From the UHGV virus genome UHGV-1364187: a stretch of 64,000 nt of DNA. One strand, given 5' to 3'. The stretch's first letter is position 1; each line of letters opens with the position of its first letter. Position numbers and translations under genes: made by a program. Shown one piece after another: positions 3,649 to 55,500 of the stretch. A model generated the notes under the pieces. The model saw only the letters and a program-made list of their open reading frames with translations. It did no database searches and was not told the origin of the DNA. The stretch is from a virus.

Positions 3649-4836
3649 TTATTCTTCATTTTTTAATATATCTAACCCTACATAATTAGAAAATGTATCA
3701 GAAAGTCTATCACTAACATTATCAAGAATACTAATACATTGTTCTAAATAATTTCTTATATATAATGAATTATATACATAAACGTTTCCGTTATATAACA
3801 ATAATACCGTCGTAGCACCATATTTTTCTAGAACTTTTTCTTCTTCTATTTCGTTAAATTGTTTAATGATTTCTGATATATTATCTTTAGCCTGTTTTAA
3901 TAAATCTTCTCTATAAAAATCATTTTTATTTACTATATCCATAATAGTATTAATACTATTCATAGATGTATACATAAATATTATTCCAGATTTAATTTGG
4001 AAATCTGAATCATTTAATGGATAAACTATTGGAGCTAAATCTAATTGGGATACATTACCAACTACTTCTCCATCTTTATATATATAATCATTATTTATAA
4101 ACAACATTTCGTCTGTAAGTAAGATGGCTTTAGACATCATTAAATCTTCGTATGGTATAATCATATTAGTTGGAACATAGCCATCTACATTGTACATATT
4201 TGTTGTAGATACTGATGCTACATTAGTTCTTAGATCATTAATAAGATATATTGATCCGTTATGATAAATATAAAATCTAGTATCTTGACCATTATAATAA
4301 TCACTATAAACAGTCTTGATAATATCATACATAAAAGATTGTATCTGTTGATTTTTAACAATACTTTCCATACAACATTTTGTTTCTAATAATAACATTT
4401 CTTTCATATACATTCCTGGAATACAGAATGTTCTAATCATACCATCTTTGATTTCACATCTATATTGTGGGTATGAATCAAAGATATTAAGTTTTCTAGT
4501 TTCAAATCTAATACCTTCTAATTCTCCATTATCATTTGTATATTCAGATACATATAAGAATGAATCTTTTAGTTGTAAATCTAATGATGTAATAGTTCCT
4601 TCTCCATTATCATAATATACATGATATGTTTCGTTATCTTGATCAAATATCACTTCGTCGATATCATAAATTTCTATGATATTATTATCTATAATAATTC
4701 TATCTACTGTATCTATTGTATCTAGTTCTAATTTAATATTTCCATCTTCCATTCTTTCTAATTTAGCCTTTTCAGTTTCACACATAAATGCAATTCTTTT
4801 ATCACTCATATTATTTATCCTCCTCAGATAATTCAT
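3649..4836 (-). CDS. hypothetical protein (395 aa)
   Basis: Long ORF with no recognisable motifs. Confidence 0.5.
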   Translation of the reverse strand: MNYLRRINNMSDKRIAFMCETEKAKLERMEDGNIKLELDTIDTVDRIIIDNNIIEIYDIDEVIFDQDNETYHVYYDNGEGTITSLDLQLKDSFLYVSEYTNDNGELEGIRFETRKLNIFDSYPQYRCEIKDGMIRTFCIPGMYMKEMLLLETKCCMESIVKNQQIQSFMYDIIKTVYSDYYNGQDTRFYIYHNGSIYLINDLRTNVASVSTTNMYNVDGYVPTNMIIPYEDLMMSKAILLTDEMLFINNDYIYKDGEVVGNVSQLDLAPIVYPLNDSDFQIKSGIIFMYTSMNSINTIMDIVNKNDFYREDLLKQAKDNISEIIKQFNEIEEEKVLEKYGATTVLLLYNGNVYVYNSLYIRNYLEQCISILDNVSDRLSDTFSNYVGLDILKNEE

Positions 4837-6374: not shown

Positions 6375-7688
6375 CTAATATGGTTTATCTGTAGTTATTC
6401 TGTTTTTATTTAATTCTTCCATTATAATAGTTTGTTCATGTACAAATTCAGTATCTAAATATAAAGCTATATATGTAGTTATACCTTTAAAAGGTTCAGA
6501 ATAAGTTCCAATGCATGTTTCCCAGTCCATAGATACTTGTAGTTCTTTATCTGAATTAAATGTTTTTATATCTATAAACTCTCTAGGACTTATACCAAGT
6601 TTTAATGCTTGTCTTATAAGAGGAGTTACATGAATACTATCAAATAATTCTATAAACGGAATTTTTGGTATCTCATCTTGATCAAATTCTGCATAATCTA
6701 CGTTAAGATAATTATTCCATCCTTTTTCATTTACTGTAGGTATATGTAGTGTAGTTATTTCTCCCACAATAACAGTTTCTTCACTACCTTGAGATAATTT
6801 ATGAATAATCTCATGTTCTGTTCTAGAATAATATGCATACCATCTAGGTGCTGGAATCTTGACTCCTATATTAAAATCTATCATATATGAATCAGATACA
6901 TGATTTTTTGTTTGTCCATCATCAAGACTCATTCTCTCTGTTAGGTCTATATCTATTGAAAAATTTCTCATTCTAACAAAGAATTCATTAATACCATTCG
7001 TGCGTCTAAATTTATATAATATCGGTAATTCTGATTTGGAATTAAGGTATCTTACAAATTTAGCACATTCTGATACATCACCACTTTGTATATTAAATCC
7101 TACATCTTTAGCAAATTGAATCATTACATGTAATGGAATATGGAAATCTAAATCTATCTTGAATCTCCTCTTTGTTCCAATAGGTAATACAACACCAAGT
7201 CTTTCAAATAAATCTACTTGTTTTGATCTAGTATCAACTTTAATTTTTACATTATAATTCAATTCTACTAATTTAAGTCCTAGTGCTAAGAATAAATGTC
7301 TATCATAATCTTTTATGAATGATGTATCTAATCTTCCCATTTGCATTGCTAAATTTACACCAAATCTTACATCATTATGATCATTATTATTGAAATCATA
7401 ATTTATTCTTGGTGTAATAGCAATAGCTGGAGTTGGTTTACTTATAAAATTATAAGATTTATCCATTTTTCTATACTCATCCAATATATGTTTTTCATTA
7501 ATATATACTGTCTTAAAGTAATCTTTTGGTAATCCACTTAATATGAAATCTTTAATATATTCAGTTGCTATTGATTCTGTGTGGATTAATGATGGTGAAG
7601 CCATACTCATATTTAAATTTACTTCTTGTTTCTTTTTTAATATATCTGCAGGATTACATTTCTTTAGATTAGGATTTCTATTAATCAT
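6375..7688 (-). CDS. hypothetical protein (437 aa)
   Basis: RBS aggagtga. No recognisable motifs; I checked for RNAP motifs and found none. Confidence 0.5.
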   Translation of the reverse strand: MINRNPNLKKCNPADILKKKQEVNLNMSMASPSLIHTESIATEYIKDFILSGLPKDYFKTVYINEKHILDEYRKMDKSYNFISKPTPAIAITPRINYDFNNNDHNDVRFGVNLAMQMGRLDTSFIKDYDRHLFLALGLKLVELNYNVKIKVDTRSKQVDLFERLGVVLPIGTKRRFKIDLDFHIPLHVMIQFAKDVGFNIQSGDVSECAKFVRYLNSKSELPILYKFRRTNGINEFFVRMRNFSIDIDLTERMSLDDGQTKNHVSDSYMIDFNIGVKIPAPRWYAYYSRTEHEIIHKLSQGSEETVIVGEITTLHIPTVNEKGWNNYLNVDYAEFDQDEIPKIPFIELFDSIHVTPLIRQALKLGISPREFIDIKTFNSDKELQVSMDWETCIGTYSEPFKGITTYIALYLDTEFVHEQTIIMEELNKNRITTDKPY

Positions 7689-7715
7689 TATATCACTCCT
7701 TTATCATAAAAAATA

Positions 7716-7750
7716 AAAGCATTTACGTTAATGTTCCACGTAAATGCTTT
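7716..7750 (-). terminator. rho-independent terminator after beta-prime exon 2
   Basis: 12-bp stem aaagcatttacg/cgtaaatgcttt with T-runs on both strands. Confidence 0.6.
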
Positions 7751-7758
7751 TTATTATA

Positions 7759-8109
7759 TTAGAAGTGTTTCTGTTCTTTTATTCTCTTAATCTTCTCTAA
7801 TTGTTCTTGAGAATAGTTCTTTCTAGATAATCCAATAAGTGTATTAATATTAATAATAGTATCTCTTGAGTGGTTCATTGCTTTATTAAACATACCATTA
7901 TTTCTAGAGATATATAATGCATTTCTTGGATTAAGAACTTTAAATGCTTCTTCATAGAATGCTTTGTTATTAATTAGGAATATAGATAACGTATCACCAT
8001 CAAAATCTGCAGCCATAGTCTTTAAGATCTGTAATGGTAATGCCATTGTATATGTGTCTAATATTCCTACTACATGCATTTGTAAAATACTTCCATATGA
8101 AATTGTAGG
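7759..8109 (-). CDS. rpoC: multisubunit RNAP beta-prime N-terminal fragment, exon 2 (catalytic NADFDGD loop)
   Basis: PTISYGSILQMHVVGILDTYTMALPLQILKTMAADFDGDTLSIF...LNPRNALYISRNNG aligns with E. coli beta-prime APTLHRLGIQAFEP...AAYNADFDGDQMAVH...STNNILSPANGEP. The frame is open upstream as far as a stop codon at 8137..8139. Confidence 0.8.
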   Translation of the reverse strand, partial: PTISYGSILQMHVVGILDTYTMALPLQILKTMAADFDGDTLSIFLINNKAFYEEAFKVLNPRNALYISRNNGMFNKAMNHSRDTIININTLIGLSRKNYSQEQLEKIKRIKEQKHF

Positions 8110-8600
8110 CTCCGTCTTCACATAGAGTCGTGACTTCTATGCAGTTCTCTTATGAACTTCTATGAGTATTACTCATAAGGAGAGACTATATCTTCATCTT
8201 TTACTATTCTTATATTATTTCAAATATAAGATACTACTAGCAGTCAGATGCCTTGCACTTCGGATATACTATATCCTACTCTACTCACTTCGTCTATATC
8301 TAATTTATTAGATATACCTTATTTTTAACTAGATTACTAGTATATTAGCTTTCGATAGTCGTTGAACCTTCTCCTATATAATTTATATAAGAGCTTGGCT
8401 GCTGATTGGACATTGTTTGTTACTTGGCACGATACTTAGGCTCTCACCATATATCATCTTAATGATTATTTCTGTCTTTCGACTGCCATTCACGCTTACC
8501 TGTTACAGTTACGTTGTAGCTCATTAAGCATTAGCCCTTCCCAGACAAGTTCACAAGGTTTTTCTCCGTACATTTCTGTAGGGAGGACCCATCCACAAAT
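8110..8600 (-). ncRNA. group I self-splicing intron (491 nt, no ORF) inside the beta-prime gene
   Basis: The 5' exon ends in U (..AAU CGA CCU) and the intron ends in G (..GACGGAG). The intron 5' end (AUUUGUGGAUGGGUC) contains GGGUC, which can pair with the exon end GACCU to form P1 with a U.G wobble. An R-like element (GACUAUCGAAAG) lies near 8345-8360 and an S-like element (GAAGAUAUAGUCUC) near 8178-8190 on the minus strand. The upstream ORF reads through for 34 unrelated codons to a stop. The spliced junction restores the conserved ILINRP|PTISYG (E. coli LLNRAPTLHRLG). Confidence 0.75.
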
Positions 8601-9761
8601 AGGTCGATTTATTAAAATAGGTATACCTTGACCGTCATCTATTAAAGATTGAATAATATTTCTAACTCTTTGGTCTTCTTGAATAGTGGCATAATACCAA
8701 ATATTATGTGCTTCATCATAAGACATATTATAAGATTTTACTAAAACATTTATAATTCTCTGTTCTAATAATCCTACTAATGCAAAGTATGATAATTTTA
8801 CTTGGTCTACTTTTAATGTATCATCTGGAATGATTACACATCTAGAAGAGAAGTTAAATCTTCCTCCGAATACTCCTCTAAATATACCTTTCTTTCCAGA
8901 TAATATATTTTCAACTTCAGCATAAACTTTATTAAGTTTATATTGTAAATCGTATAATAATTGTAATTTAGGTTTCTTCTTTCTATGAATACGTAATGTA
9001 TTCATATTGATATCATGAACTAATTTTACAATCATATTATACAATCCATTAATATCGTTGAATACAAAGTTTCCACCATCAAGTTTGAATGGTCTTAATA
9101 GTGTCGTAAATATTGGTATAGAATGAGTAAATATCTTATCTTTATTCTCTAACAAATCAAGATAAGTATCAGTCTTAGCTTTCTTATTAGAAGAATTATT
9201 GTAATAATAATCTAAAACTGTTTCAAAGTTATCTCTTAACCATAATATACCTTTTCCTTTATATGGTTCATCTTTAACTTGTTTATTTTCTTCTATTGTA
9301 AATCCATCTTCATTCTTATTGTCTATTGGTTTTATGATATTATAAAGTTTCTCTGTTCCAATAATAGTCTCTAATTCTTTATATAGATTAGGATGGATTA
9401 TACAATATTCATCTTTCAATACTGTCCAACCAAATAAGTCATAATTATCATCAACAAACTTTACTTTAGTATTACATATAGGACATGTCATGCCATTATT
9501 AATTTTACCCATAGTGTAACCACATGAACATTTATATTTGTTAATGAACGGGTTAGAGTCATTTAATGTAGAACCAAATCTAGTACTAAAAATACCATTT
9601 GGTTCTTTTAAATCCTTCTTAATGTTTTGATGTTGAAAGATAATGAACCCGTTACCAGTACGAAGATCATTATCTTTCTCTTTATCCAAGTCAATTCTTT
9701 CTAGTAATGTTTCAACTTTAAATAAATTTCCAAGTTCATCTACAAGATGTGGATAATTCAT
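8601..9761 (-). CDS. rpoC: multisubunit RNAP beta-prime N-terminal fragment, exon 1 (Zn ribbon, clamp, lid)
   Basis: The Zn-binding motif CSCGY...CPIC matches the beta-prime N-terminal CxCGK..CxxC. IPIFTTLLRP matches LPVLPPDLRP, and GKKGIFRGVFGGRFNFSSRCVI matches [23 protein letters not shown]. RBS gaaggagatg. Confidence 0.8.
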
Positions 9762-9827
9762 ATTTATATCATCTCCTTCAATAATATAATATATAAGTTA
9801 ATAATAAGTTACATATACATTAATTTT

Positions 9828-10301
9828 CTAATGTATATGTAACTTATTATATTTATATTTATATTCTATAGACTTAGAATCTCTTTCTTGCTTCTTTTCT
9901 ATCCACTCTTGAACTTTATCTTTTATTTTATACTTGTTCACTAAACAACAGATTACATTATATGTGTCATTCATTGAATAGAAAAACCTAGATTTATAAT
10001 TATTATACAAATAAGATTTACTAACAAGTTGTTGAAATCTTGATAAATTATAAATACACTGTTTAAGACTATATTCACGTCTTGATATTCTTATTCTCGC
10101 TTTCTTTTCGATTTTATGTCTAAGTCTATATAAACATGTGTAAACATCACATATTTCTTCAGAAAGATGATATATATCAATTTCTTGTTCAGATAAGCAA
10201 TTTATCAATTCTGATAACTCTTCTTGCATCTTCATAAAAATAAAATCATCACCACTCATATCAGTGATACTATGTTGTAATTTTGTATCTATTAAAAACA
10301 T
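9828..10301 (-). CDS. hypothetical protein (157 aa)
   Basis: ORF immediately downstream of 10304..11236; probably co-transcribed with it. Confidence 0.45.
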   Translation of the reverse strand: MFLIDTKLQHSITDMSGDDFIFMKMQEELSELINCLSEQEIDIYHLSEEICDVYTCLYRLRHKIEKKARIRISRREYSLKQCIYNLSRFQQLVSKSYLYNNYKSRFFYSMNDTYNVICCLVNKYKIKDKVQEWIEKKQERDSKSIEYKYKYNKLHIH

Positions 10302-11478: not shown

Positions 11479-12666
11479 CTATACTACATTTTTATGTGTT
11501 CTATATTTTACAATATCACTTATAGTACTAATATTATATCCAGTACTATATTTTATTTCAGTTAGTGTCATACCCTCTTGTTCATACATTCTTCTTATAT
11601 CTCTTACAATATCATCTGTTATACTTCTTCCAGGAGCATTGGATAAATCATATTGTTCATATATATCTCTATGTGCTCTACCGCTAGTAATATTCACAAT
11701 AGTTTTTCTATTTATATCAAGATGATGTGATATCATTGTTGGAGTATATCCATTGGAAAACAATATCATTATATTATGCACATCTTCATCTGTAATCTTA
11801 GTTGGAACATAAGCATTAGATAAATCGTATTGATTTCTAATATCTAAATGTTTCTTTCCACCATATACAATATTAGTTACAGTTTTTCTATTTAAATTTA
11901 ATTCATCTGCAATCTGATATGCTTGATACCCTTGAGAATATAATCTAAATATATCATGTAAAGTATCTTCTGGAAGTAATCTTGTAACTTGATCTAATTC
12001 TAATTCTTCATATACATCTTTATGGCTAGAACCACATGATATATTTCTTACATTAACATATGAAACTCCAGTTTTTTCTGCAATTTCTTTAAGAGATAAT
12101 GTTGTATCCTTAATAAGATTACCAACTTCATAAGCTTTCTCTTTAGATATACATATAGCTTCTACTTCTGGTCTTAATTCTTCATATGAATGATGAACAT
12201 TTTCTAATGGAGTAGCCCATTCAAGATTACATAACCAATTACACCATGTACAACCATTTATATGATTGACTTGATATTGTTCTGGATTTTCTATTGGAAG
12301 AAATGTCATCATTACTAATCTATGAACAAAGTATATATGTTTCTTTCCATCAAGACATGATAATCCAACTCGTAGATATCCTTTATCTGTAGATTGTTGT
12401 TGCATGAATACATTATTAAGTAATGAGAATATTCTTCCGTAATTACTTACCATATATCTTCCAGGAACAATTTCTTCTGAATTTATAAATACAAATATTT
12501 CATCTGGAGCCATAAGTGGGATATATGTATATTCTTGTTGATAATTTGAAAATTGTTCTGGTATATAATTTGGTGGTAGTTCTTTTCCAGTCTTAGAAAT
12601 ATATGCTGGAATTATTAAATTTTTGATTTCTTGTCCTTCTTTATACTCTTTGTTTTTGTAATACAT
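11479..12666 (-). CDS. free-standing HNH homing endonuclease (NUMOD4 + HNH_3 + C-terminal helix-turn-helix repeats)
   Basis: NUMOD4-like RYMVSNYGRIFS. HNH_3 motif VNHINGCTWCNWLCNLEWATPLENVHH. Four repeats of the NLNRKTVTNIVYGGKKH / DINRKTIVNITSGRAHRDIY type. RBS gaaaggatg. Confidence 0.85.
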   Translation of the reverse strand: MYYKNKEYKEGQEIKNLIIPAYISKTGKELPPNYIPEQFSNYQQEYTYIPLMAPDEIFVFINSEEIVPGRYMVSNYGRIFSLLNNVFMQQQSTDKGYLRVGLSCLDGKKHIYFVHRLVMMTFLPIENPEQYQVNHINGCTWCNWLCNLEWATPLENVHHSYEELRPEVEAICISKEKAYEVGNLIKDTTLSLKEIAEKTGVSYVNVRNISCGSSHKDVYEELELDQVTRLLPEDTLHDIFRLYSQGYQAYQIADELNLNRKTVTNIVYGGKKHLDIRNQYDLSNAYVPTKITDEDVHNIMILFSNGYTPTMISHHLDINRKTIVNITSGRAHRDIYEQYDLSNAPGRSITDDIVRDIRRMYEQEGMTLTEIKYSTGYNISTISDIVKYRTHKNVV

Positions 12667-35686: not shown

Positions 35687-38600
35687 TTACATTTGGTCTA
35701 AATATTTCCATTTAATTCCCGCTAAATCTTTTGCATGTCTGTCTAATTCTATCATAGCTTTATTAATAGCACCAACAATAATAGGTGCTCCTGTCATACG
35801 TGCTAATGTAGATGCAACACATAATATAGTATGGATTTTTTCATCTGGTCTATATGATGATGTTGGTTCTTTTCCTTTTTCTAATACAGTTCTACATACA
35901 CCCTTTACAGCAGAATAATCTACAATTTTATCACCAACTGCTAATTTGTCTTCATATTCTAGATATATCTCTATAAGAATTCCGCTTTCAATATTTTTAA
36001 GTTTTCCAACAACAGGCAATGCTTCTGTAGATTCTAATCCATAAATATAATCTATTCCATATTTCTTTTGAGCAGACTTTATTTTTTTAATAGGTTTTTC
36101 AATTTCAGTTACAAACTTCTTAAGAGAATCTGATAGTTCATCTATTTCACATGTTCTATATACTTTGATATCACTTATGATACCATTAGCTTTAGCTTTA
36201 ATTGTAAATCTTCCAAGATCAGATACAAGTTCGACATCTCCAGATAAAGATTTCATTAAAGCATTAACATCTTCTTCATCATATGCGTCTTGAAATACTA
36301 ATAATGTATCTCCTTCTTGCACATAATCCCCTTTCTTTACAATATCTAATAATATAGCATTTTTATCCATAGATACATCTTTCTTAACGTCTATATATGA
36401 CGTTAATGCATCTGATAAATATTCTGAAACGATTGTACTATCTTCAAATCCTTCTTCTGTAGACATAATAGCTACTTTAGTTAATAATCCCATTGAGTAT
36501 GTAAGATTATCATTAGCACCATAAGCATGGTCAAAACTAAATTTATCATAGGCTATAATATCATTAGCTTTGAATTTATCTCCAACTTTTAGTTCTGTAC
36601 TAAGTTGTAATGTGATATAGAATCCACCATCTGAATTTTTTCTAATATTGTTTCTTAAATCTATAAAATCATGAGTTCCATCAGAATAAGTTACAATCAT
36701 ATAGTCATCTGTAATAGTCTCAACTGTACCATTCTTTTTAGCTTTAAATGCAAAGTTATTTGTTACCATATATGGTAAAGCTTGATCTGCACCGTTTGTA
36801 ATTAAAGATGGGAATGATATTTTTGTTGGTAATTGATGTTTTGATGTTTGGATAAAGTCCATTGCTGAACGCATAGCATCATTACGTGTTACACCATATG
36901 GAGTTAATGCTTCTTGGATAGAAAATGAACTAGTAATATTCATATCATCTCTATTTTTAGTGGTTTTAATATACCCCCTAATAGTATCAACATTCATATT
37001 TATTGTAGCCTGCCTTACAATACCAGAGTTACCAGCGAAGTTTGTAGCACATGCTAATATATTAATCATAGAAGGATCATATGAACGTTTATCAGCTTTA
37101 TATGCTCTATCTGCATTCATACCAGAATGACCTTTAGTTGATAATGCATTAATAGCTTCTAACTCTCCAATAGGAGTAGTATATGAGTAATCACCAGCAG
37201 TATTAGCCATTAATACTTCATCTATTACTGCAGATTGTTTCATTGATATAGTGGCATTCTTAAATCCTTTTTTAATTTTATTTTTATAATCATTATAAGC
37301 ATATGCCAATTCCTTATAAGCATAAGCTGCCACTATTTCATTACTACGATATCTATATGCATCCATGTTAGTATGATTACTATACTGTGTTGATGCTAGT
37401 AAATCATTTGCATATAACAATATGTCTGTAAATTCTGTAGGTAATCCGTAATGAATCAATGATTGCAATGTGATATAATCAATCATACAATCATAGAAGT
37501 TTTCTATACCATCAGATAATTTAGCTCTAGGACCATAATTATCTAAGATTTCTATCCACATAGATTTTGAATCTATATCTCCAATAGAATATATTTCTGT
37601 AGTGACATCTTTAATTCCATTTAGTAATAGATTTGAACTGTTAGTACATTCAAAAACTATATATCCATCTGAAAATCTTATAAAATCTGCATTATCTGCT
37701 TTTTTGTCACTTTGATCAAGTTTTTCTTTTATAGTATATTTAATATTAGCTTTTTTAAGCATTTCAGTTAAACCAATTTGATAGCATATGATGATAGCTA
37801 GTGGAATTTGAGTATTAAGAATACTAGCTCTAGAATAAATATACTTCTTACCTTTAGTTGTATTATTGTATAATTCTCTAAGTTCATTATCGTCTCCAAT
37901 TAATAAGTCCAATATTTTATTAGGGACATCTGGAAATGAACTATAGATAACTTCTTTAGACGTTTTGTGATATGCAATAGGAATTTTTCCTTGTGGAACT
38001 TTCTCTATATTATATTTAGTTCTAATCTCTTTTTGATTAAGATATACTATAACATCTTTAGTTTCTAACTTATTGTACTGAGAAGCTAAATATTCATATG
38101 TATATGGTACATCATAAATATTATTAGCTAATGTACAATCTCCTATAGTAGATTTTATCTTATCTGTTTTGTTTATAGTTTTTATCAATCTGTCAGTAAC
38201 AGAATCTGATTTTTGTCCATATCTTTTAATGAAGATTTTATTGTAGTTTGATACAATTTGAACAGTATCTGGGTCTGTTTTTGATATTGGTAACAATAAT
38301 AATTGACCATTAATAGTCTTATCATTACCTTTAATAATAAGAAACTTATTATCTTTAAACTTAGGTACGTCGAATTTAAATTGAAATCTTTTACCGAACG
38401 AATCTTCGCAAAATACAGTATATGTATCTTTATAATCTTCTGACGTTGATGAATCTTCAATTTTTATATCTCTTACTGCAACAGGATAAGATGATTTTGT
38501 AAGAAGTTCTGTAATACAGTTAATTATATCTTTATTTACATCATAATCGTTTTCGATATTCATATATTTTAGATTAGACCATTCCTCTTCATTTACAGTG

Positions 38601-40024
38601 TCAATTCTTGTTGATAAATTAGTTGATGTGAGTTCTTTATCAGTATCAGGACCAAGAATATCATCTAGTTTAATATTGTTTATTTCTTTTTGTCTTAGTT
38701 CTTTATTAAGATTTTCTAAACGGTCTAATCGTTGTTTGCTTATTTTACCACTATTATCTTGCTCAGCTGCCATTTTCAATATTAATTCTTTAAACTCTGG
38801 ATCGTTCTCTAATTCTTCCATAGTAGCTTCTATATCTGAAGATTTTTCTGCAGCATTTTCAATTCTATTTAATAATTCTTTTTCATCTATAGAACCATCT
38901 TCTCCAGTAAGAGAATTGATCTTGATTTTAGCCTTACCAGTTTCTAGTTTAGATAGAATAGCCATTACAATAGATTTTGTTGATGAATTATTATTAGCCA
39001 TGCTATCTTGTTCTTCTGGTGGAATTGGCAAATTGTTTTCAATGATATTAATAAACTTATTAAATTTGATATAAGTTTCATTGTTGATATCATCTACTAC
39101 TAATTTGAATTGAGTATTACCATTAGTAAATACAAATTCTTCACCAGATAGAAGTTCTTTAATCTTATCTGGATTTCTTCTTAATAATCTTGAGAATAAT
39201 GATATAGGATTGATATTTTTCATATCTAATGTAGAATTCACACCTTCTGGAAGATTCCTATACCAACCATCAACAGGTATATATGACACTTTATTATATG
39301 AATCAAATCTTTCATCTTTAATAAATCTATGAAGTAGTTCTAAGTATAGATATATACCTTTCATATTACTCATATAATTATTTTTAAAGAAATTTTCATT
39401 ATAATAAAAGAAGTCTACATACATATTACGTCTTCTATATTTGTCCATATAAAGATATGCGTATTTGATAGATTTACATTCTTTCTTAATCTTATCATAT
39501 ACCAATACTACATCTTTTGGTGTTTTAAATCTTTCTCTATATAGTAATTGTTTTAAGATTTTATTGTATTTTGAAGATGATAGAATATTACTATTATCTT
39601 CTGCTTCTAGTAAAGAATTTAGTTTATCATTGTTAATGATTGTAATGCTAGATTCATCCATAATATAATCAATTCCAAATTCATTCATAGCTTCTAGTAA
39701 ACCTTCTTTAGTTTGAGTATATAGATATCTATGTTTCTCTACATCTAATACCGTTTCGTTGATTATACTATCTTCTTCTAATATAATATCATCACTGTTT
39801 GATAAGAATGATTCTTGAGATATAATAAACGAAATATCTTTCTCAATATAATATGAGTCATATTGTTTATTACAATCTTTTGTATTGATAATCTTTATAG
39901 ATTCATCAATATTTGGTGTTATTAAAAACATAATACTATCTTTGAGTTTATTTTTCGTATTGAACGGAAAATAAACAGGTTTATTGTATAATTTCATATT
40001 CTTTAAATCTTTATATAAAATCAT
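35687..40024 (-). CDS. rpoB: multisubunit RNAP beta subunit, N-terminal fragment (lacks the C-terminal ~250 aa), with a ~170-aa charged low-complexity insertion
   Basis: [19 protein letters not shown]...[22 protein letters not shown] matches E. coli beta GDKMAGRHGNKGVISKI...[36 protein letters not shown] matches [32 protein letters not shown] matches RVCPIETPEGPNIGLI. The ORF ends about 35 aa after the GDK/KGV motif, so the GGQRFGEMEVWALE region is absent. RBS taggaggt. Confidence 0.7.
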   Translation of the reverse strand: [1445 protein letters not shown]

Positions 40025-43919: not shown

Positions 43920-45077
43920 CAAGATGACTTAGCCGTGTTAGATAGAAATATCTAATATGATTATCGGGGAAATTCGGTAGAGGTCTAAGTAAGATTATCA
44001 ATTAAAAAGAAATGATGATATTTATGAATTATAATAAAACTGAAATTGAAAGATTATATTTTGAAGAAAATATGACATATGATCAAATATCTGAAATTGT
44101 AGGATGTTGTAAATCTACTATAGGAAATATTATTAGATCAAATCCAAACTATAAAAAGAAATCACAAACACTATATAGTAATCCATTATTAGATGAAAAT
44201 TATTTTGAAATAATAGATACAGAAGCAAAAGCTTATATATTGGGACTTATGATAACAGACGGGAATGTTTGTTATTATGGTGATGGATATCGTATTAGAT
44301 TACAATTAAAATATGAAGATTCTTATATTTTAGAATTCTTTAAAAATCAGATTCACTGTTCCAATAAACTTATTGTTGATAAGCGAGATGGTTCTATTGC
44401 ATTTAGTATAAAATCAGAAAAGATGTTTTATGATTTATCTAAATATGGAGTAGTTCCTAATAAAACTTTAAATAATTATGTTCCACCAAATATACATCCA
44501 ATGCTAATGCCTCATTTAATAAGAGGAATATTTGATGGTGATGGTTGGATATCAAAATCGTTTGATAAAAATGGAAAGAAACATATAGCTATTGGTATTT
44601 GTGGAAATGAAAATTTTCTTCAACAATTCAGGATATATTAGTAATAAATGCTCGAGTAAATATGAATATTATAAATTCTTATAGCTCAATTAATGAAGCT
44701 CCATTATACCAAACAATGTGGTGTTCTATTGGAGATATTATTAGATTATATAGTTATTTATACATAGGTGCTAATATATATCTATTTAGAAAATATCATA
44801 CTATAATTGATATAATTTTATATGAAAATACCGAGAGGGCTTTAATCGAAAGTCTTTGTAACGCATAGGAGTTGAACGTTATGATAGTAAAAATACTCCC
44901 AAGAGTCTCCGACACAATATACTATAGGTATATTTGAGGTGGAAATTGCTCACCACCAAACCTAACGTTAAACGAGGGTGAATATATATGCTAGGCTGGA
45001 TTGGAAATGACCAATCGATGAAAATGAGGGAAACCTCCAGAGGTCTAGATAAAAAGCTAGACGTTAATAACAGTCCG
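43920..45077 (+). ncRNA. group I intron 1 in nrdD (~1.16 kb), carrying a LAGLIDADG homing-endonuclease ORF
   Basis: It interrupts conserved HSRAGQ|VPFSS. A heptamer GGTCAAG is shared at both exon ends, so the exact junction is ambiguous. R-like CCGAGAGGGC..AUCGAAAG and UCCGACAC elements resemble those of intron 2. Confidence 0.7.
44012..44641 (+). CDS. intron-encoded LAGLIDADG homing endonuclease (double-motif)
   Basis: Motif 1 AYILGLMITDGNV and motif 2 LIRGIFDGDGWI. Located wholly inside nrdD intron 1. Confidence 0.8.
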   Translation: MMIFMNYNKTEIERLYFEENMTYDQISEIVGCCKSTIGNIIRSNPNYKKKSQTLYSNPLLDENYFEIIDTEAKAYILGLMITDGNVCYYGDGYRIRLQLKYEDSYILEFFKNQIHCSNKLIVDKRDGSIAFSIKSEKMFYDLSKYGVVPNKTLNNYVPPNIHPMLMPHLIRGIFDGDGWISKSFDKNGKKHIAIGICGNENFLQQFRIY

Positions 45078-45380
45078 AGTCAAGTTCCATTTAGTAGTTT
45101 AAATATTGGACTTCCTAAAAATAAAAATGGTGCTAGAGTATGTATGGCATTATTAGAAGAATACGATAAAGGTATGGGAAAAGGAGAACAAATGATTTTT
45201 CCTAATATTATCTTTAGATGTAAAAAAGGTATTAACAAAAATCCTAATGATCCATATTATTATTTATATGATAAAGCTTGTGATGTAGCAAGTAGACATA
45301 TGAATCCAACATTTATGAATATTGATAGTAAAATTAATATGGAGTTATGGAAAAAAGGTATTACACCTGCAATCATGGGT
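45078..45380 (+). CDS. nrdD: NrdD exon 2
   Basis: VPFSSLNIGLPKN..ARVCMALLEEY..IFPNIIF..AIMG. It ends AIMG|, completing the E. coli TPMG|CRSFLG junction. Confidence 0.75.
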
Positions 45381-45689
45381 TAACAGAAAATGTTACACGG
45401 TTTCTACAGCTCATGTAAAACCTATCTAAACAGGGAAAGCTCATAAGAGTCAATCCTGTGCTAAATTCTAATATTATATAGAATATATAATTATTTATAC
45501 ATTGTATATAGTACTAGATAAATGCCGAGAGACTATCGAAAGACTATTTTATATAGAATCAAGTAGAGTAGGATACAAGTGTATTCGAAAAGATAGGCTT
45601 AGATATTTATATTATCTATGAAGATATAGTCCGACACCTATAGTGATATAGGAAAGATTATGGAAACGATAATCTTATAACAAGAAATG
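45381..45689 (+). ncRNA. group I intron 2 in nrdD (309 nt, no ORF)
   Basis: The 5' exon ends AUGGGU (U at the splice site). The IGS GCUCAU at ~45410 pairs with AUGGGU (P1 with U.G). The R element is GCCGAGAGACUAUCGAAAG and the S element UGAAGAUAUAGUCCGACAC. The intron ends ..AAAUG (omega G), and the next exon begins UGU (Cys of MGCRTYVG). Confidence 0.8.
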
Positions 45690-49557: not shown

Positions 49558-52500
49558 ATGGCACAAAGAACAAGTTTAACAAAATATGCAAAGAATTTAG
49601 TAAAATCAACTAAATATGCTACTGTTGATGTTGTAAAGGAATTAATGCCAAGTGCAACAGATTTTATGGAAACAAATAATGAATTATTTAAAGATATTAC
49701 GTCTAATATACGTAATAGACGTGTTATTTTTAAAAGAGTAAACGATAAAGTTACTCAATCAAAAATCTATGAAACTGTAGATGAAGCTAGAAAAAATATC
49801 ATAGAAGATATAAAATCTGGTAATTTATATAACAAAGATCCAATCAGAGAAAGACGTATTAATAAAAAATCTGGTATGGAGAGTATGTTAGGTGGATTTG
49901 ATGATTTTAGTGATTTTGAGTTTGAAATGGATGATTCATTCGAATTTGAAGATAGTGATAATGCCGAATTAGCTGATGCTTTTGATGATTCTAATAGAAC
50001 AACATCAGAAATGATCGCTAATACAATTGCAAAAACATCATCTAATCAGATCCAATCACAAAGAATATCAAGCCAGATGACAATGATGCAATTACAAGAA
50101 GGATTTACATTAGTAAATTCAAATCTTGGTGGAATAGGTAATGCTATTTCTGAATTAGGGAATACTATGTCATCTATTCAACAAACTAATGCTGAAAATG
50201 CAAAAACTTATTACGAAAAATCTACTGACTTGCAAGCTAATATGGTATCATATCTTAAAGAGTTAGTAGATATGAAAAAATCTGAAATGGGATTAGATGC
50301 TAAGAAAGATACATCTCGTGGACCTAAATCATATAATGACATAACTACATATGAAGGTATGCCTGATCTTAGAGCATATGGTAATATATTAGCTAGTAAA
50401 TTAAATGATAATTTATCAATGATTACAGGTCTTAATGAAATGGGTATCGAAGGTGGAAACATGTCAATGCAATTTGCTATGTCACCACTTGCATTTCTTC
50501 CTAAGATGGTTGTAAAGAAGGTTATGGGAGTAGCTGTTCAAAATTCAGCAAAAGCTTTAGATAATACATTATCAAATATATTTGGTACATTCATATCTGC
50601 TATGAATGATATGGCTGATAATTCTGGATATATGTCAATAAAAGGAATGATAGGACGATTCTTTGGTTTAAATGACACTGTAAAAGATGAACGTAGTATA
50701 AGAACAGACTATGATAAAGGAAATAAATCATGGAATGGTAAAGCCGAAAAAGCATTAACTGAAGTAATTCCTACATTAATTTCTAAAATTTTAGCTGTAG
50801 TATCTGGAGCAAATGAGATGACATATAACTACGATAATGGTAAATTTACTACAGTAAAACAATTAAGACAAGATGTAAAAAATAGAACTACTAATGAAAT
50901 GAATAGTGCATTTTATGATATAAGAAATAAAATGGACGAAATGATGAGATCTATTAATTTTGATTTTTCTGATGAAGACACTAAAGCATCATTTGAAAAA
51001 GATTATAATAGATTCTTTGAATATTTCTTTAAATCTAATAATAGATTTAATCCAAATAAGAAAAACTATGAAGATTATGATGGTCTTGGTATTGATAGAG
51101 GTAATTTTGAAATTATATCTACATTGTTTGAAAGACTAGATCCATCATTAAAAATGTCTATGGATAGTAAAAAAATAAGAGCTAGAGGTGCTATTAATGA
51201 TTATATTGATAAATTAGGACAGAATAGTCCAGTATATACTATCCTTAATAATGATTCAAAATTAACAGATGTCGATAAATCTGTAGATGGAAAATCTGGA
51301 GGGTTATTAACAGCATCTAAAGATTCATTAGGACATGACATATTCTGGTTTTTGGATAATATTCTTAAATCTATTAGAGATTTAAATCCAGATTCTGAAT
51401 ATAATGTAAATGGAAAGAAACGTAAAAAGAAAAGAACTAAAAATATAACTTCAACTCCTATTGTTCCATCTTCAGATAAAACATCTTCTGCTGGAAATAG
51501 GAAGAGATATGTTAGTCCAGATGCTCTTACTGCAGAATCTATATTATATAATAGAGCAGAGGGTACTACTATATCTGGTATTATTAATAATAGATTGGAT
51601 ATTGCTGACGAACAGAGAAAATTGGAGGAAGAAGAAAAAACATCTATTATTGATGATTTATTAGACTCACCATCTTTACCAGCGAAAGCTAAAGCTTTCA
51701 TGAAAAGAATGAAATCTACTAAAGAAGGTGCTAGAAATGGTATATCTGGACTTTTAGATACTGTAAATCTTAAGATATATCAAGCTATGTATGGTAATAA
51801 AAAATATAAAGGTAAGGATGTAAATGGTATTATAGGAGTAATGATGGAAAATATCGAAGAATCATTCACCAAGTTCAATACATTCTTAGATGAAAAGATC
51901 TTATCTCCATTGAAAGAAAAGTTAGATGAACAAGGTGGAATTAAAGGTATTCTTAAAAACACATTAGGAATAGATGTTGATTCTATTAAAGAAAGATTCT
52001 TTGGTAAAGATACTCTTTTTGGTAGAACTGTTCAATCTATTAAAGATAATTTTAAATCTGCTTATGAGTATTCTAAAGGAGCTGTAAAAAACACATACAA
52101 TGAAATCTATGATAAATTAGGTGGAAATAGATACAATAGTAGATTCAATCGTGTAATGAACACTATTAAATATGGTAAGAAAAATACACAAGGTATGTTT
52201 ATTGTAGATTCAGATGGACAACTTAATATACTTAATCAAGTAAAAAAAGTTAAACCTTCAAATGTTACAGAAGATGGAAGATTAAACACTCAAGAAGAAG
52301 CTTCATCTGTTATGGAAGGACAAATGAGTTTCTTACCAAAAGACGAACAACAAGCTATAAAAGAAGCTGCAAATAATATGAATGTTCCAGTAGAAAATAT
52401 TGCAGATGCAATCAATAAAGGTAATATCGAAAAATATGCTAAAGGTGGAAATATTCATAAAACTAAAATTGTTATGGTTCATGATGGAGAAGAAATCATT

Positions 52501-55500
52501 ACCAAAGAAGAAAAACGTAAGAGAGATAGAGAAAGAGCTTATGATCTAAGAGTTAAAAATAACATAAATAAACTAAATACTGAAATGAGCGAAGATTTTG
52601 TTGGGCCTTTACCTTTAAAAGATCAAAAAATAAAAGATTTCTTATCTGGAATTAATGAAGAAAACCTTGGAACTATTAAAGATTCTTTAGGAAAAGATTT
52701 TAAAGCTACTACTGTAGAAACTTTAAGACAGGAAATTATAGAAGCTGTTGGTCATAAAAAAGGTGATCCTACATTAATGGAAACCATGAAAGACACTGCA
52801 TCTGATGGAATAAATAAAGTAATGTCAGTGTTATTTGGTACAGATGAAAATGGTGATGAAAAAGCTGATGATCTTAAAGAACGTGGAAAAGCTGCAATGA
52901 AAGATATTATGGGTAAATTTAAAGAATATCTCCCATCTGGAATATCTGGTGCATTAATTGGTACTCTAGCTGGTGGTGTTGTTGGTATGCCTATGATTGG
53001 TGCAGCATTGGGTTCATCTATTAATCTTATTAGAAAATCAGATAAACTTCAATCATATTTATTTGGAGATTTAGATGAAGAAGGTAAGAGAATAGGTAAT
53101 GGTAAACTTCCAACCAAATTTGTAGATGCTATGAATAAATATGGTCCAGATATGAAAAAGTACGGTATTACAGGTGCAATTACATCTATTTTACCTTTTG
53201 TTCCTGGTGGTCCTGTTGCTGGATTATTATTAGGAGCAGGTGTTGGGTTTGCTAAAAATAACGCTAAAGTACAAGACTTCTTATTTGGAGATATGGGCAT
53301 ATTAAAAGGTCTTAAAGGTAGTGGTGAGAAATTAAAGAAAGCTTTACCTAAAATGGGTCTAGGTGCGGCTGCTTTAGCATTAACTGGTCCATTCGGTTTA
53401 CTTGGTAATGCTATGCTTGGTGCTGGTGCAGGATTTGTTACTCAAACAAATAAATTCCAAGAATTTATGTTTGGTAAAGATGGTAAAGATAAAGATGGTA
53501 ACCCTATTAAAGTTGGTGGATTTTTACCAATGATTAGGGATAGAGTAATCAACCCTATTAAAGAATTTGGTTCTACATTAGGTGATAAAGTTAAAACTTT
53601 TGTAGATGAAGAAATAAGAAAACCATTTCATAAAGCAATGAGTCCATTTATAGAAGAATTTAAATACCAAGGTAAGAGATTGTTTGATGGTATAAAAGAT
53701 TCTATCAGTGGAGCTATTAATAATGTATTTGAAAAGTCAGTTGGTAAACCATTAAATGAACTTATCGAAGATAAGATTGTAAAACCAATTACAGGATTAT
53801 TTAAGAAAGTATTTAACTTTTTAGGAGGTATTGTTGGTGGTATTCTTAAATTCCCTACTAAAATCATGTCAGGAGCTGCAGACTCTTTAAGAATTAAACA
53901 TTTAAAACAAGGTCGTGCTGATTATATGTCTGATGAAGAATTAGGTGAATTAAAAGAAAAGAAACCATTTGATTATTTAATGGCTACATCAGGACAACGT
54001 TTCATAAATGCACTTAATGAACGTGGTTTATTTGGTTCTATGAAAGATTTATTTACTAGAGATAAAGATGAAGTTGTTACTGACGAGGAATCTGTTAAAG
54101 AAAAGAAACCTACATTCAGAGAAAAAGTATCAGGAATAGTAGCTAAAGGTTTAGATTCTTATAATGCTAAAAGATTAGCTATTACAGAAAGAGTATCATC
54201 TGGGTATGCTAATACTAAAGAAGAATTAAGAAATGCTAAACAAAATCTTAAAACAAAAGCTTATCAAGCTGCAATGAATGCAACAGATAAATTATCAGCT
54301 AGTATTGAAGCTGGTAATAGGTATTCTAAAGTTTCTTCTTATAGGGAATCAGAAACAGAAAGCGAGGGAGACTCGACTGGTTCTTCAGAGAAGCGTGTTG
54401 ATCTTAGAACTAGAACACCTAAAATTAAATCTGTAAAAACACAAAATGTAAGTTTAGTAAATCCAGAAGTTGATGCTTTGAAACAACAAGTAAAACAATT
54501 AACCACCGAGCTTGCAGTAATGCAAAAAGAAAAAGAAGAAAATAAAGATACATCTTCAGACAAATCATCAGAATATATCAAAGATATAAGAGATGAGGTT
54601 AGAGGGCAATTAGATGGAGTTGGATACAATATCCATACGATTGCTAATATACTAGTAGAACAATTCGGTATGCCTAAGATTAAAGCTACAGGTGCTAAAG
54701 TATCTCGTGGAAATCTTAAACGAAAATTATGGTTTGAGAGAATGTTTGGATTTATTCTTAATCCTGTTAGAAAAGTTAAAGATAGTATTCATAATCTATT
54801 CTGGGGTAAAGATGGTAATGGTGGTTTATTAGGCACTCCAATGAGATGGGTTAAGAAAGGATTTGAAAAAATAGGTAATATTGGAACATTAATTGGAAAA
54901 GGATTAGCTGGTATACTAAATATTGGTTCAGGTATTGTTCATGGACTTGGTATATTAGGTGGTATCTTTAAAGAAAGTTTAGCTGCAATAGCTCCAGCTA
55001 TTGGAAGTTTATTAAAAGGTGCAGTTAAAGTATTAACGTTACCTATCGATTTATTATCAGGTGCAATATCAGGTCTTGGTAATATGCTTGGTGGATTAGC
55101 TAATGGTATTGGTATTCTTGCTGGAAAAACTATTGAACTTGTTTCTTTAGTTCCATCATTAATTACTAATATTGGTAAACTGACTATTGAAGTTGGTAAA
55201 TTTGCATTCAAATTAGTTAAGAAAGGTGCAGAACTTATAACAGCTCCAATAAGATGGATGGCTAATGGTATTATTGATATATTTAGAGGAAAAAATAAGA
55301 AAAATAAAAAGAAAGAAATCAAGCATATTATAGAAGGTGGTTTCTTAGATAAAATCAAAGAACCTATCGATATTAGTGGTGAACAAGATAGACATGATAA
55401 ATTATTATCTTTCTTTGATGATAAATTTAATAAATTATTTGATTTATTAAGTGGAACTGATAATAAAAAGAAATCTATTACAAATAATATTACTAATAAA

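What the first reader, a model, noticed from the sequence alone, without database searches (positions are those of the whole stretch)
7759..9761. Group I intron inserted at the catalytic-centre NRP|PT site of the phage RNAP beta-prime gene
The beta-prime N-terminal fragment is interrupted by a 491-nt ORF-less insertion (8110..8600, minus). The insertion falls between codons for ..ILINRP and PTISYG.., that is, inside the universally conserved LLNRAPTLHRLGIQAF segment just upstream of NADFDGD. The insertion has the expected ribozyme hallmarks: U at the 5' splice site, omega-G at the 3' end, a GGGUC guide that pairs with the exon end GACCU, and R/S-like elements. A ribozyme embedded at the most conserved spot of the transcription enzyme that the phage needs for its own gene expression is a striking dependency; splicing could gate RNAP production. 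The R/S elements resemble those of the two nrdD introns, which suggests one intron family has spread within this genome.
Basis: partly seen in the sequence, partly recalled or inferred. Interest (0 to 1): 0.7.

Follow-up and report, generated by a model that had tools for sequence, protein, structure and literature searches.

The report
Self-splicing intron in phage RNA polymerase gene
A 491-base group I self-splicing intron with no gene of its own interrupts the RNA polymerase beta-prime gene of an uncultured gut jumbo phage at a highly conserved active-site motif; the call is correct, but such introns are already known in this same gene in related phages, so it is a new example rather than a new phenomenon.

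Summary
Window 8110..8600 (minus strand) is a 491-nt insertion between exon 1 (8601..9761) and exon 2 (7759..8109) of the non-virion RNAP beta'-N gene.

- **Boundaries:** an intron-less relative (79% aa identity, also 503 aa) aligns up to 8601 and resumes at 8109. It reads INRP|PTISYG without a gap.
- **Ribozyme identity:** Rfam Intron_gpI matches end to end. The window copy scores 40.4 bits (E 1e-8), below the gathering score of 50. The orthologous copy in a relative scores 57.1.
- **Structure:** four related introns support P2-P9, including the P3/P7 pseudoknot. 36 of 87 pairs show compensatory changes, against 1-7 in slid controls. The guide sequence co-varies with the exon: GACCU/GGGUC, GGAAU/GUUCC, CGGU/GCCG.
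- **Content:** no ORF longer than 36 aa, so no homing endonuclease.

The setting is known. AR9 g270, the ortholog, is annotated with an HNH-carrying intron in DYDGD. PhiPA3 has one in vRNAP beta. Metagenomic relatives carry introns of this lineage at four or more positions between NRxPT and DFDGD.

The "gating" idea has no support. The "one family spread in this genome" idea is weak, because only one nrdD intron shares the core motifs and the closest relatives lie in other phages.

Verdict: a real feature, and a new member of a known kind.

The parts
8601..9761 (-). Exon 1 of the non-virion RNAP beta' N-terminal subunit gene (387 codons, ends ..ILINRP).
   Evidence: ORF list and translation. 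Homologs align colinearly up to NRP. As an uninterrupted ORF it runs 34 more codons into the intron, to a stop at 8496..8498.
8110..8600 (-). Group I intron, 491 nt, without an ORF (IA-type architecture with P7.1/P7.2 and a large P5 extension).
   Evidence: Rfam RF00028 gives 40.4 bits, E 1.1e-8, covering model positions 1-253. The indel is defined exactly by intron-less L009. Covariation supports the structure. MFE z = -2.58. The longest internal ORF is 36 aa.
7759..8109 (-). Exon 2 (116 codons plus stop; starts PTISYG.. and contains AADFDGD).
8601..8605 (-). P1 5' strand: exon end GACCU, with the 5' splice site after U8601.
   Evidence: Pairs with GGGUC of the guide, with U.G at the splice site. 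GACCU is kept in all three closely related intron-containing alleles. The two intron-less alleles each carry one synonymous change here.
8586..8593 (-). Internal guide sequence GAUGGGUC (P1 3' strand).
   Evidence: The guide co-varies with the exon in L041 (GGAAU/GUUCC) and in LPJP1 (CGGU/GCCG).
8564..8585 (-). P2 hairpin.
   Evidence: Alifold prediction, with 3 of 4 counted pairs showing compensatory changes.
8552..8558 (-). P3 5' strand CCUUGUG, which pairs with 8251..8257.
   Evidence: Long-range helix recovered by RNAalifold, with compensatory changes.
8412..8533 (-). P5 peripheral extension (P5a/b/c-like, about 120 nt), the signature of this intron lineage.
   Evidence: Conserved in L007, L008, L041 and LPJP1, and rich in compensatory pairs. 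Its motif GTCGAAAGACAGAAANAAT retrieves 47 viral-contig loci.
8356..8367 (-). R element / P7 5' strand (GUUCAACGACUA; GACUA pairs with UAGUC).
   Evidence: P7 shows two compensatory pairs in L041 (GAUCA/UGAUC).
8258..8355 (-). P7.1/P7.2 region between P7 and P3', including AT-rich hairpins specific to the window copy.
   Evidence: Treated as an insert relative to the Rfam consensus. The P7.2 hairpin GGAUAU/AUAUCC is replaced by CACUC/GGGUG in L008 (read from the alignment by eye).
8251..8257 (-). P3 3' strand UGCAAGG.
8195..8250 (-). P8, with an AT-rich extension.
   Evidence: The base CAUCU/AGAUG is invariant in three introns.
8184..8194 (-). S element / J8/7 plus the P7 3' strand (AAGAUAUAGUC).
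8120..8178 (-). P9, P9.1 and P9.2 hairpins (the 3' tail).
   Evidence: Covariation in P9 and P9.2. The tail is 84% identical to the 3' tail of an HNH-containing nrdD intron of Thomasclavelia phage TR-TP1, and nearly identical in LPJP1.
8110..8110 (-). Omega-G, the last intron nucleotide, at the 3' splice site.
   Evidence: Of the five in-frame positions that follow a G between the upstream stop codon and 8110, only this one gives NRPPTISYG with no extra residues, as in the intron-less homologs.
7706..7751 (-). Terminator-like hairpin plus T-run just after the exon 2 stop codon. The whole exon-intron-exon unit lies upstream of it.
   Evidence: Read from the sequence. Its 11-nt loop exceeds the scanner's limit, so one search does not list it. 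One search finds no terminator-like site inside the intron on the minus strand.

Best explanation

**Inferred mechanism (standard group I chemistry).**
1. The gene is transcribed as one pre-mRNA.
2. The intron folds into the P1-P9 core.
3. The guide GGGUC pairs with the exon end GACCU, placing U8601 in a U.G wobble.
4. An exogenous guanosine bound in P7 attacks after U8601.
5. Omega-G (8110) then occupies the G site, and the freed 3' OH of exon 1 attacks after it.
6. This joins ..AAU CGA CCU to CCU ACA AUU.. and yields a 503-aa protein with an intact NRPPTISYG...AADFDGD catalytic segment.

**Evolutionary reading.** The intron is an old resident of this site. It occurs at the same codon boundary in relatives that are 73-75% and 45% identical in protein. 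It is missing from two close relatives. It belongs to a lineage that has colonised several positions of the RNAP catalytic segment in uncultured jumbo phages.

**Shown here:** the boundaries, the ribozyme homology, the covarying secondary structure, the restored ORF, and the presence/absence polymorphism.

**Inferred, not shown:** that it splices, and how it moves or is lost.
For: - **Rfam.** RF00028 matches over the full model: 40.4 bits, E 1.1e-8 in the window, 57.1 bits in the same-site ortholog L008, and 39.7 bits in L041.
- **Consensus structure.** RNAalifold recovers P1, P2, P3 (long range), P4, P5, the P5 extension, P6, P8, P9 and P9.x.
- **Covariation.** With P7 added as a pseudoknot, 97.9% of cells pair across four introns. 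36 of 87 pairs have changes on both sides, against 1-7 for slid controls and 0 of 500 shuffles. With two introns the figure is 15 of 90 pairs.
- **P1 co-varies with the exon.** GACCU/GGGUC (window, L008, L007), GGAAU/GUUCC (L041, same site, where the Pro codon is replaced by an Asn codon) and CGGU/GCCG (LPJP1 rpoB).
- **Intron-less alleles.** L009 and L011 (P0001, 503 aa, 79% identical; P0003, 504 aa, 77% identical) read INRP-PTISYG with no indel. The DNA indel is exactly 8110..8600.
- **Spliced product.** Pfam PF00623 reaches 44.8 bits over residues 299-444, against 16.7 and 19.3 bits for the separate exons. The best solved-structure match is AR9 nvRNAP beta' (7S00 chain d, E 2e-43), aligned straight across the junction.
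- **Same sequence in the wild.** An identical exon-intron-exon sequence occurs in four independent gut-metagenome assemblies, one of them a 256.5-kb contig.
- **Homology to known phage introns.** The intron core resembles known staphylococcal, Bacillus and other phage introns in 237 phage records.
Against: - There is no RNA evidence. Splicing is inferred.
- The window copy falls below the Rfam gathering score (40.4 against 50) and is missed entirely in whole-window scans.
- No convincing P10 pairing with the 3' exon could be drawn by hand (at most 2 bp).
- The exon 1 reading frame stays open for 34 codons into the intron, through P1-P5. Ribosomes could therefore in principle disturb folding.
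- The covariation structure was derived from the same sequences it was tested on, which inflates the counts somewhat. The slid controls mitigate this but do not remove it.
Confidence: 0.93

Rival explanations
1. The two ORFs are normally separate genes. This would be an extra split of beta' into two subunits, and the 491 nt would be an intergenic spacer.
For: Jumbo-phage RNAP genes are naturally split, and gene callers did call two ORFs here (421 aa and 106 aa).
Against: - The closest homologs are single 503/504-aa proteins that read through the junction.
- The break would cut the NRPPT motif itself.
- Exon 2 has no ATG at its start and no visible ribosome-binding site upstream of the GTG at 8121.
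- There is no terminator-like site in the spacer on the minus strand, and promoter-like sites occur at the chance rate.
- The spacer is a covarying group I fold.
Confidence: 0.02
2. It is a decayed group I intron that no longer splices, so this copy of the beta'-N gene is a pseudogene.
For: The score is below the Rfam gathering score. The copy carries about 90 nt of extra AT-rich hairpins in P7.1, P8 and P9.1 relative to L008. It has no homing endonuclease.
Against: - Every core helix is intact: 100% of the cells in the two-sequence structure are paired.
- U.G, omega-G, P7 and J8/7 are all conserved.
- Both exons are intact and colinear with homologs.
- The gene is a single-copy essential subunit.
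- The same sequence recurs unchanged in four assemblies.
Confidence: 0.04
3. One reading: splicing is conditional and acts as a gate or timer on production of the non-virion RNA polymerase.
For: Only plausibility. The intron sits in a gene needed for middle and late transcription, and the exon 1 frame runs 34 codons into the ribozyme core, so translation and folding could interact.
Against: - No regulatory element, ligand-binding domain or alternative structure was found.
- Close relatives do without the intron.
- Introns of the same lineage sit in unrelated positions and genes, namely beta RVG|EME, nrdD and DFD|GD. That fits selfish insertion at conserved sequence rather than a regulatory role.
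Confidence: 0.05
4. The insertion is another kind of intervening element: a group II intron, an intein, or a translational bypass element.
For: None beyond the fact that the gene is interrupted.
Against: - The exon frame meets a stop 34 codons into the insertion, so it cannot be an intein.
- There is no Rfam hit to group II models, and a full-length group I hit is present.
- At 491 nt it is far longer than known bypass gaps.
Confidence: 0.005

Closest known systems
Group I intron in Bacillus phage AR9 g270 (non-virion RNAP beta' N-terminal subunit), carrying the HNH homing endonuclease g271
   Same: It is in the same orthologous gene: the spliced product aligns to AR9 gp270 / PDB 7S00_d at E 2e-43. 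It lies in the same catalytic double-psi beta-barrel segment. It is annotated as a joined CDS.
   Different: The AR9 intron sits in the metal-binding motif, at about GDYDG|D, roughly 37 codons downstream. It encodes an HNH endonuclease. The window intron sits at NRP|PT and has no ORF. AR9 reads NRNPTISIG without interruption.
PhiPA3 gp210 intron in the virion RNAP beta subunit gene gp211/209 (Birkholz et al. 2024, PMC11620839)
   Same: It is a putative group I intron at invariant residues of a jumbo-phage multisubunit RNAP gene.
   Different: It is in a different subunit (beta of the virion RNAP) and a different phage family. It carries an HNH nicking endonuclease with a demonstrated role in interference competition. 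No endonuclease is present here.
Unannotated intron in rpoB of Listeria jumbo phage LPJP1 (MZ422438, L002:2433-2850)
   Same: It is the same intron lineage. It shares the P5 extension and a near-identical 3' tail, and it is ORF-less and about 418 nt long.
   Different: It is inserted in the beta subunit at PIRVG|EMEY, with a matching guide (GCCG/CGGU). It is not annotated as an intron in the record.
Same-site introns in uncultured relatives: L008 (405 nt), L007 (partial) and L041 intron 1 (424 nt)
   Same: They sit at the identical codon boundary NR(P/N)|PT, are ORF-less, and are 70-78% identical in the core.
   Different: They lack the window-specific AT-rich hairpins. L041 additionally has an HNH-containing intron 37 codons downstream, after AADFD.
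Classical phage group I introns (staphylococcal Twort/K-like, T4 td/nrdB/nrdD, SPO1 polymerase) and the group I introns of gut Jug phages (PMC12880540)
   Same: They share the same R/S core sequences, and 114 Staphylococcus phage records match intron positions ~36-259. They insert at conserved codons of essential genes. In gut jumbo phages such introns are frequent, and splicing of some has been confirmed by metatranscriptomes.
   Different: The host genes differ. Subgroup assignment (IA2) was not tested here with subgroup-specific models.

Membership tests
Group I intron (Rfam RF00028) | Covariance-model match reaching the curated gathering score (50 bits) | tested here: inconclusive
   The window copy scores 40.4 bits (E 1.1e-8) over the full model, which is below 50, and it is missed in whole-window scans. 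The orthologous same-site intron scores 57.1 bits in L008 and 39.7 bits in L041. The shortfall coincides with about 240 nt of peripheral inserts.
Group I intron (Rfam RF00028) | P1 helix formed by an internal guide sequence and the 5' exon end, with a U.G wobble at the 5' splice site | tested here: met
   GACCU|AUU pairs with GAUGGGUC. The guide co-varies with the exon in L041 and LPJP1.
Group I intron (Rfam RF00028) | Terminal guanosine (omega-G) at the 3' splice site | tested here: met
   The base at 8110 is G. The boundary is fixed by the intron-less allele and by the reading frame.
Group I intron (Rfam RF00028) | Conserved core P3-P4-P5-P6-P7-P8-P9 with a P3/P7 pseudoknot, supported by covariation | tested here: met
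   87 pairs, 97.9% paired, 36 with compensatory changes against 1-7 in slid controls. P7 has 2 compensatory pairs.
Group I intron (Rfam RF00028) | Guanosine-dependent self-splicing activity | not testable with these tools
   This needs in vitro transcription with GTP, or RNA from infected cells.
Subgroup IA (IA2-like) phage introns | Extra P7.1/P7.2 helices between P7 and P3' | tested here: met
   A 98-nt insert lies between P7 and P3' and contains hairpins. P7.2 is replaced by a different complementary pair of strands in L008. Subgroup-specific covariance models were not available, so the assignment to IA2 specifically is inference.
Mobile group I intron with intron-encoded homing endonuclease | An endonuclease ORF inside the intron | tested here: not met
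   The longest ORF within 8110..8600 is 36 aa. The intron is therefore not filed under this class. A free-standing HNH/NUMOD4 gene lies at 11479..12666.
Jumbo-phage non-virion RNAP beta' N-terminal subunit (AR9 gp270 type), the host gene | Homology to gp270, including the NRxPT and DFDGD catalytic motifs in one polypeptide | tested here: met
   The spliced 503-aa product matches 7S00_d at E 2.2e-43, aligned over residues 104-475. PF00623 scores 44.8 bits. It carries NRPPT and AADFDGD.

The most novel reading that the evidence does not exclude
The ORF-less intron at NRx|PT is one arm of a single intron lineage that specialises on the catalytic segments of jumbo-phage RNA polymerase genes. Occupied positions include NRx|PT, PTIGYG|, AD|, DFD|GD in beta', and RVG|EME in beta.

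On this reading the ORF-less copy stays mobile without its own endonuclease in one of two ways:
- It hitch-hikes by co-conversion with the HNH-encoding intron 37 codons downstream, an arrangement seen in L041.
- It is mobilised by a free-standing HNH enzyme of the same family acting in trans. One lies at window 11479..12666.

The RNAP active-site region would then be a recurrent battleground for interference competition between co-infecting gut jumbo phages, as shown for PhiPA3 against PhiKZ.
Probability: 0.2. Interest if true: 0.5.

Novelty: new member of a known kind. Interest (0 to 1): 0.3.

Why it matters
**Practical value: annotation.** Gene callers split this essential RNAP subunit into a 421-aa ORF and a 106-aa ORF. 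Rfam at default settings misses the intron. The same is true of the LPJP1 rpoB intron in GenBank. Recognising the intron restores a complete catalytic subunit.

**Biological value: modest.** It adds the NRx|PT boundary to the list of RNAP active-site positions colonised by group I introns. Together with the relatives found here, it shows that one intron lineage occupies at least four positions within about 40 codons of the beta' catalytic barrel in uncultured jumbo phages. The presence/absence polymorphism among close relatives makes this a natural system for studying intron gain, loss and homing in RNAP genes.

It does not open a new mechanism.

Tried and rejected
- **Whole-window Rfam scans.** Scans at the gathering threshold and at E<=0.01 found nothing. 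This was an effect of the speed filters, not absence, because short-stretch scans found both introns.
- **IMG/VR search with the spliced protein.** It found no relatives because the peptide seeds were too specific. A DNA motif from the intron worked instead.
- **Global pairwise identity between introns.** It was uninformative, since shuffled controls already gave about 65%. I used blastn scores and identity over columns shared by all sequences instead.
- **P10.** No convincing pairing could be drawn by hand.
- **nrdD intervening sequence 1.** Its 3' part gave no Rfam hit and it has no S element, so it could not be confirmed as a relative.
- **Paralogy of the two 395-aa ORFs (3649..4836 and 11479..12666).** Rejected.
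- **Promoter and terminator scan.** It gave nothing to support two independent transcription units.
- **Pfam on nine large neighbouring ORFs.** It added no context beyond Kelch and Listeria-Bacteroides repeats.
Full report
**1. The observation**

On the minus strand, an ORF starting at 9761 encodes the N-terminal part of an RNA polymerase beta' homolog. It runs to a stop at 8496..8498. A second ORF ending at 7759 encodes the continuation, including AADFDGD.

Taking exon 1 as 8601..9761 (387 codons) and exon 2 as 7759..8109 (116 codons plus stop) leaves a 491-nt insertion at 8110..8600, with the exons in frame. Its features are:
- The last exon base is U and the last intron base is G.
- The exon end GACCU can pair with GGGUC 8-15 nt into the insertion.
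- The insertion holds no ORF above 36 aa.
- It is richer in G+C (35.6%) than the exons (26.6%).

**2. Is it a group I intron?**

*Rfam.* Whole-window scans gave nothing. A scan of 7900..8800 gave an end-to-end match to Intron_gpI (model 1-253) at 8160..8610, with 40.4 bits and E 1.1e-8, below the gathering score of 50. The alignment places P1 on GACCU|AUU / GAUGGGUC. It places the R element on GUUCAACGACUA, the S element on AAGAUAUAGUC, and P9 on UAUGAG/CUCAUA. About 240 nt are treated as peripheral inserts, in P5 and between P7 and P3'. The orthologous intron of a relative (L008) scores 57.1 bits, above the gathering score. The more distant L041 copy scores 39.7.

*Consensus structure.* RNAalifold on the window and L008 recovers P1, P2, the long-range P3, P4, P5, a three-way P5 extension, P6, P8, P9 and a terminal hairpin.

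*Covariation.* I added P7 as a pseudoknot and removed three spurious local hairpins, then counted pairs.

| Alignment | Pairs | Cells paired | Pairs changed on both sides | Slid controls |
|---|---|---|---|---|
| Window + L008 | 90 | 100% | 15 | 0-2 |
| Window, L008, L041 intron 1, LPJP1 rpoB | 87 | 97.9% | 36 | 1-7 |

In the four-intron test, no shuffle out of 500 reached the observed values. P7 itself changes from GACUA/UAGUC to GAUCA/UGAUC in L041.

*Guide sequence.* The guide tracks the exon:
- GACCU/GGGUC in the window, L008 and L007
- GGAAU/GUUCC in L041, where the Pro codon is an Asn codon
- CGGU/GCCG in LPJP1

*Other evidence.* The MFE is modestly lower than shuffles (z = -2.58). The core is similar to introns in 237 phage records, mostly staphylococcal K/Twort-like phages.

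*Caveat.* The structure was derived from the sequences it was tested on. The slid controls mitigate this but do not remove it.

**3. Are the two ORFs one gene?**

The spliced product is 503 aa. A search of the large protein collection returned 778 homologs.

| Protein | Locus | Length | Identity to spliced product | Behaviour at the junction |
|---|---|---|---|---|
| P0001 | L009, L010 | 503 aa | 79% | reads INRP-PTISYG, no indel |
| P0003 | L011 | 504 aa | 77% | reads straight through, no indel |
| P0002 | L003-L006 | 421 aa | 98% | the exon-1 ORF of this same phage |
| P0005 | L007 | 393 aa | 74% | diverges immediately after INRP |
| P0006 | L008 | 408 aa | 71% | diverges immediately after INRP |

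At DNA level, intron-less L009 aligns to the window up to 8601 and resumes at 8109. The indel is therefore exactly the proposed intron. Of the five in-frame positions that follow a G upstream of exon 2, only 8110 avoids adding residues that are absent from all homologs.

Pfam RNA_pol_Rpb1_2 is sub-threshold on each exon (16.7 and 19.3 bits). It reaches 44.8 bits over residues 299-444 of the spliced protein.

The best solved-structure match is the AR9 non-virion RNAP beta' subunit (7S00 chain d, E 2.2e-43). Its alignment runs straight across the junction, ilinrpptisygsil against fllnrnptisigsil. The host gene is therefore the ortholog of AR9 gp270.

The window is 100% identical over 7600..9900 to a 256.5-kb ENA contig and to three other gut-metagenome contigs. 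This is a real, recurring phage genome that carries the intron.

**4. Context: what is already known**

- **AR9.** g270 is annotated as a two-piece CDS. Its intron carries the HNH endonuclease g271. Exon 1 ends at ..SGDYDG, inside the metal-binding motif.
- **Staphylococcal jumbo phages.** A paper on these phages states that jumbo-phage RNAP subunit genes are frequently disrupted by introns. It names the AR9 nvRNAP beta'-N gene as an example.
- **PhiPA3.** It has an HNH-containing intron at conserved aspartates of the vRNAP beta gene, with a demonstrated role in competition against PhiKZ.
- **Gut Jug phages.** They carry about 18 group I introns per genome in terL, nrdD and polymerase genes, and metatranscriptome reads support splicing for some.

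A ribozyme in the catalytic centre of a phage's own RNAP is therefore an established phenomenon.

**5. The lineage and its sites**

A motif from the P5 extension retrieves 47 loci in IMG/VR, many on contigs above 150 kb. Several lie in beta'-N homologs that are 42-45% identical to the window protein.

| Locus | Position of the interruption | Size / content |
|---|---|---|
| L041 intron 1 | INRN\|PTINYG, the same boundary as the window | 424 nt, no ORF |
| L041 intron 2 | after AADFD | about 1 kb, 197-aa HNH ORF |
| L025, L057 | GADFD\|GD | 1.29 kb, 275-aa HNH ORF |
| L058, L049, L033 | after PTIGYG and after AAD | not characterised |
| L030, L016 | after NAD | about 776 nt, two intron cores |

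The Listeria jumbo phage LPJP1 has an unannotated 418-nt member of the lineage in rpoB at PIRVG|EMEY. The 3' tail of the window intron is 84% identical to that of an HNH-containing nrdD intron in Thomasclavelia phage TR-TP1.

**6. History at this site**

Exon-1 protein identities define two sub-clades: {window, L007, L009} and {L008, L011}. Each contains intron-plus and intron-minus members. The 45%-identical L041 is also intron-plus.

Intron identities among the window, L007 and L008 are 77-78%. That is similar to exon nucleotide identity. There is therefore no sign of recent horizontal transfer. The pattern needs at least two losses or gains.

All three closely related intron-plus alleles keep GACCU at the exon end. 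The two intron-less alleles have CGCCCU and AGACCG, each a synonymous change at a P1 position. This fits a P1 constraint on occupied alleles, but the sample is small.

**7. The side claims**

*Gating of RNAP production by splicing.* Nothing supports it. Close relatives lack the intron, and the lineage inserts at many unrelated conserved sites, which is the signature of selfish insertion.

*One family spread within this genome.*
- nrdD is indeed in three pieces.
- Its second intron (about 45369..45689) is a group I intron at 51.3 bits with the same R/S core and a similar P7.2 region.
- It lacks the P5 extension and shares only 12-28-nt matches with the RNAP intron.
- The first nrdD intervening sequence, which holds a LAGLIDADG ORF at 44012..44641, has no S element and no Rfam hit in its 3' part.
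- The RNAP intron's nearest relatives are in other phages.

**8. Verdict**

The finding is real and correctly interpreted. It is a new member of a known kind. No report of the NRx|PT site turned up in the papers I searched, and the gene and the phenomenon are already known. The ORF-less state, the free-standing HNH of the same family 1.7 kb upstream and the two-intron arrangement in L041 suggest how the intron might move: trans-acting homing or co-conversion hitch-hiking. This remains inference.

Noticed in passing
window 45369..45689 (+), approximate: This is a second ORF-less group I intron, in nrdD between ..KKGITP and CRTYVGT.. Rfam Intron_gpI scores 51.3 bits, above the gathering score, but only when a 411-nt stretch is scanned. 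It has the same R/S core as the RNAP intron but no P5 extension.
   Followed up: partly
window ~43930..45077 (+): This is the first intervening sequence of nrdD, with a LAGLIDADG-like ORF at 44012..44641. It has no S-element match and no Rfam hit in its 3' part. Its nature is not established: it could be a group I intron of another subgroup or something else.
   Followed up: partly
window 11479..12666 (-): This is a free-standing HNH_3/NUMOD4 endonuclease gene with several HTH modules, 1.7 kb upstream of the RNAP gene. It is homologous (E 5e-17) to the HNH encoded inside the DFD|GD intron of L025. A similar gene also lies upstream of the RNAP gene in the intron-less relative L009.
   Followed up: partly
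L002:2433-2850 (Listeria phage LPJP1, MZ422438): This is an unannotated 418-nt group I intron of the same lineage. It splits rpoB at PIRVG|EMEY. The GenBank record annotates the 3' exon as a hypothetical protein.
   Followed up: yes
L041:5024-5447 and L041:5559-~6593: Two introns lie 37 codons apart in one beta'-N gene. The first is ORF-less at NRN|PT. The second is HNH-encoding and lies after AADFD.
   Followed up: yes
L030:9200-9975 and L016:283-1058: About 776 nt lie between ..LMNAD and GDVLN.. and contain two copies of the intron P5-extension motif. This could be two tandem introns around a micro-exon, or a twintron. It was not resolved.
   Followed up: no
L058:10480-12666 (also L049, L033): This beta'-N homolog is interrupted after PTIGYG and again after AAD. 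Both are further insertion sites in the same 40-codon segment.
   Followed up: partly
window 8496..8600 (-): The exon-1 reading frame stays open for 34 codons into the intron (ICGWVLPTEMYGEKPCELVWEGLMLNELQRNCNR*), through P1-P5, before the first stop codon. Ribosomes reading into the core could interfere with folding.
   Followed up: no
L009:4144-4158 and L011:2043-2057 versus window 8601..8615: The intron-less alleles differ from the occupied alleles by synonymous changes at P1-pairing positions (CGCCCT and AGACCG against AGACCT/CGACCT).
   Followed up: partly
L012:1224-2169 (Thomasclavelia phage TR-TP1, PQ571309): This nrdD intron carries an HNH endonuclease (gp87). Its 3' tail is 84% identical to window 8117..8192. 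The intron itself is not annotated in the record.
   Followed up: partly
whole window: A technical point: Rfam scans of the full 64 kb, at the gathering score and at E<=0.01, miss both group I introns. Both are found when stretches under 1 kb are scanned (against 4, 32). Intron counts from default scans of AT-rich phage genomes will be underestimates.
   Followed up: yes
window 49558..59625 (+) and 35687..40024 (-): These are very large ORFs of 3355 aa and 1445 aa. The 1445-aa ORF has no Pfam match. The 3355-aa ORF was not examined.
   Followed up: no
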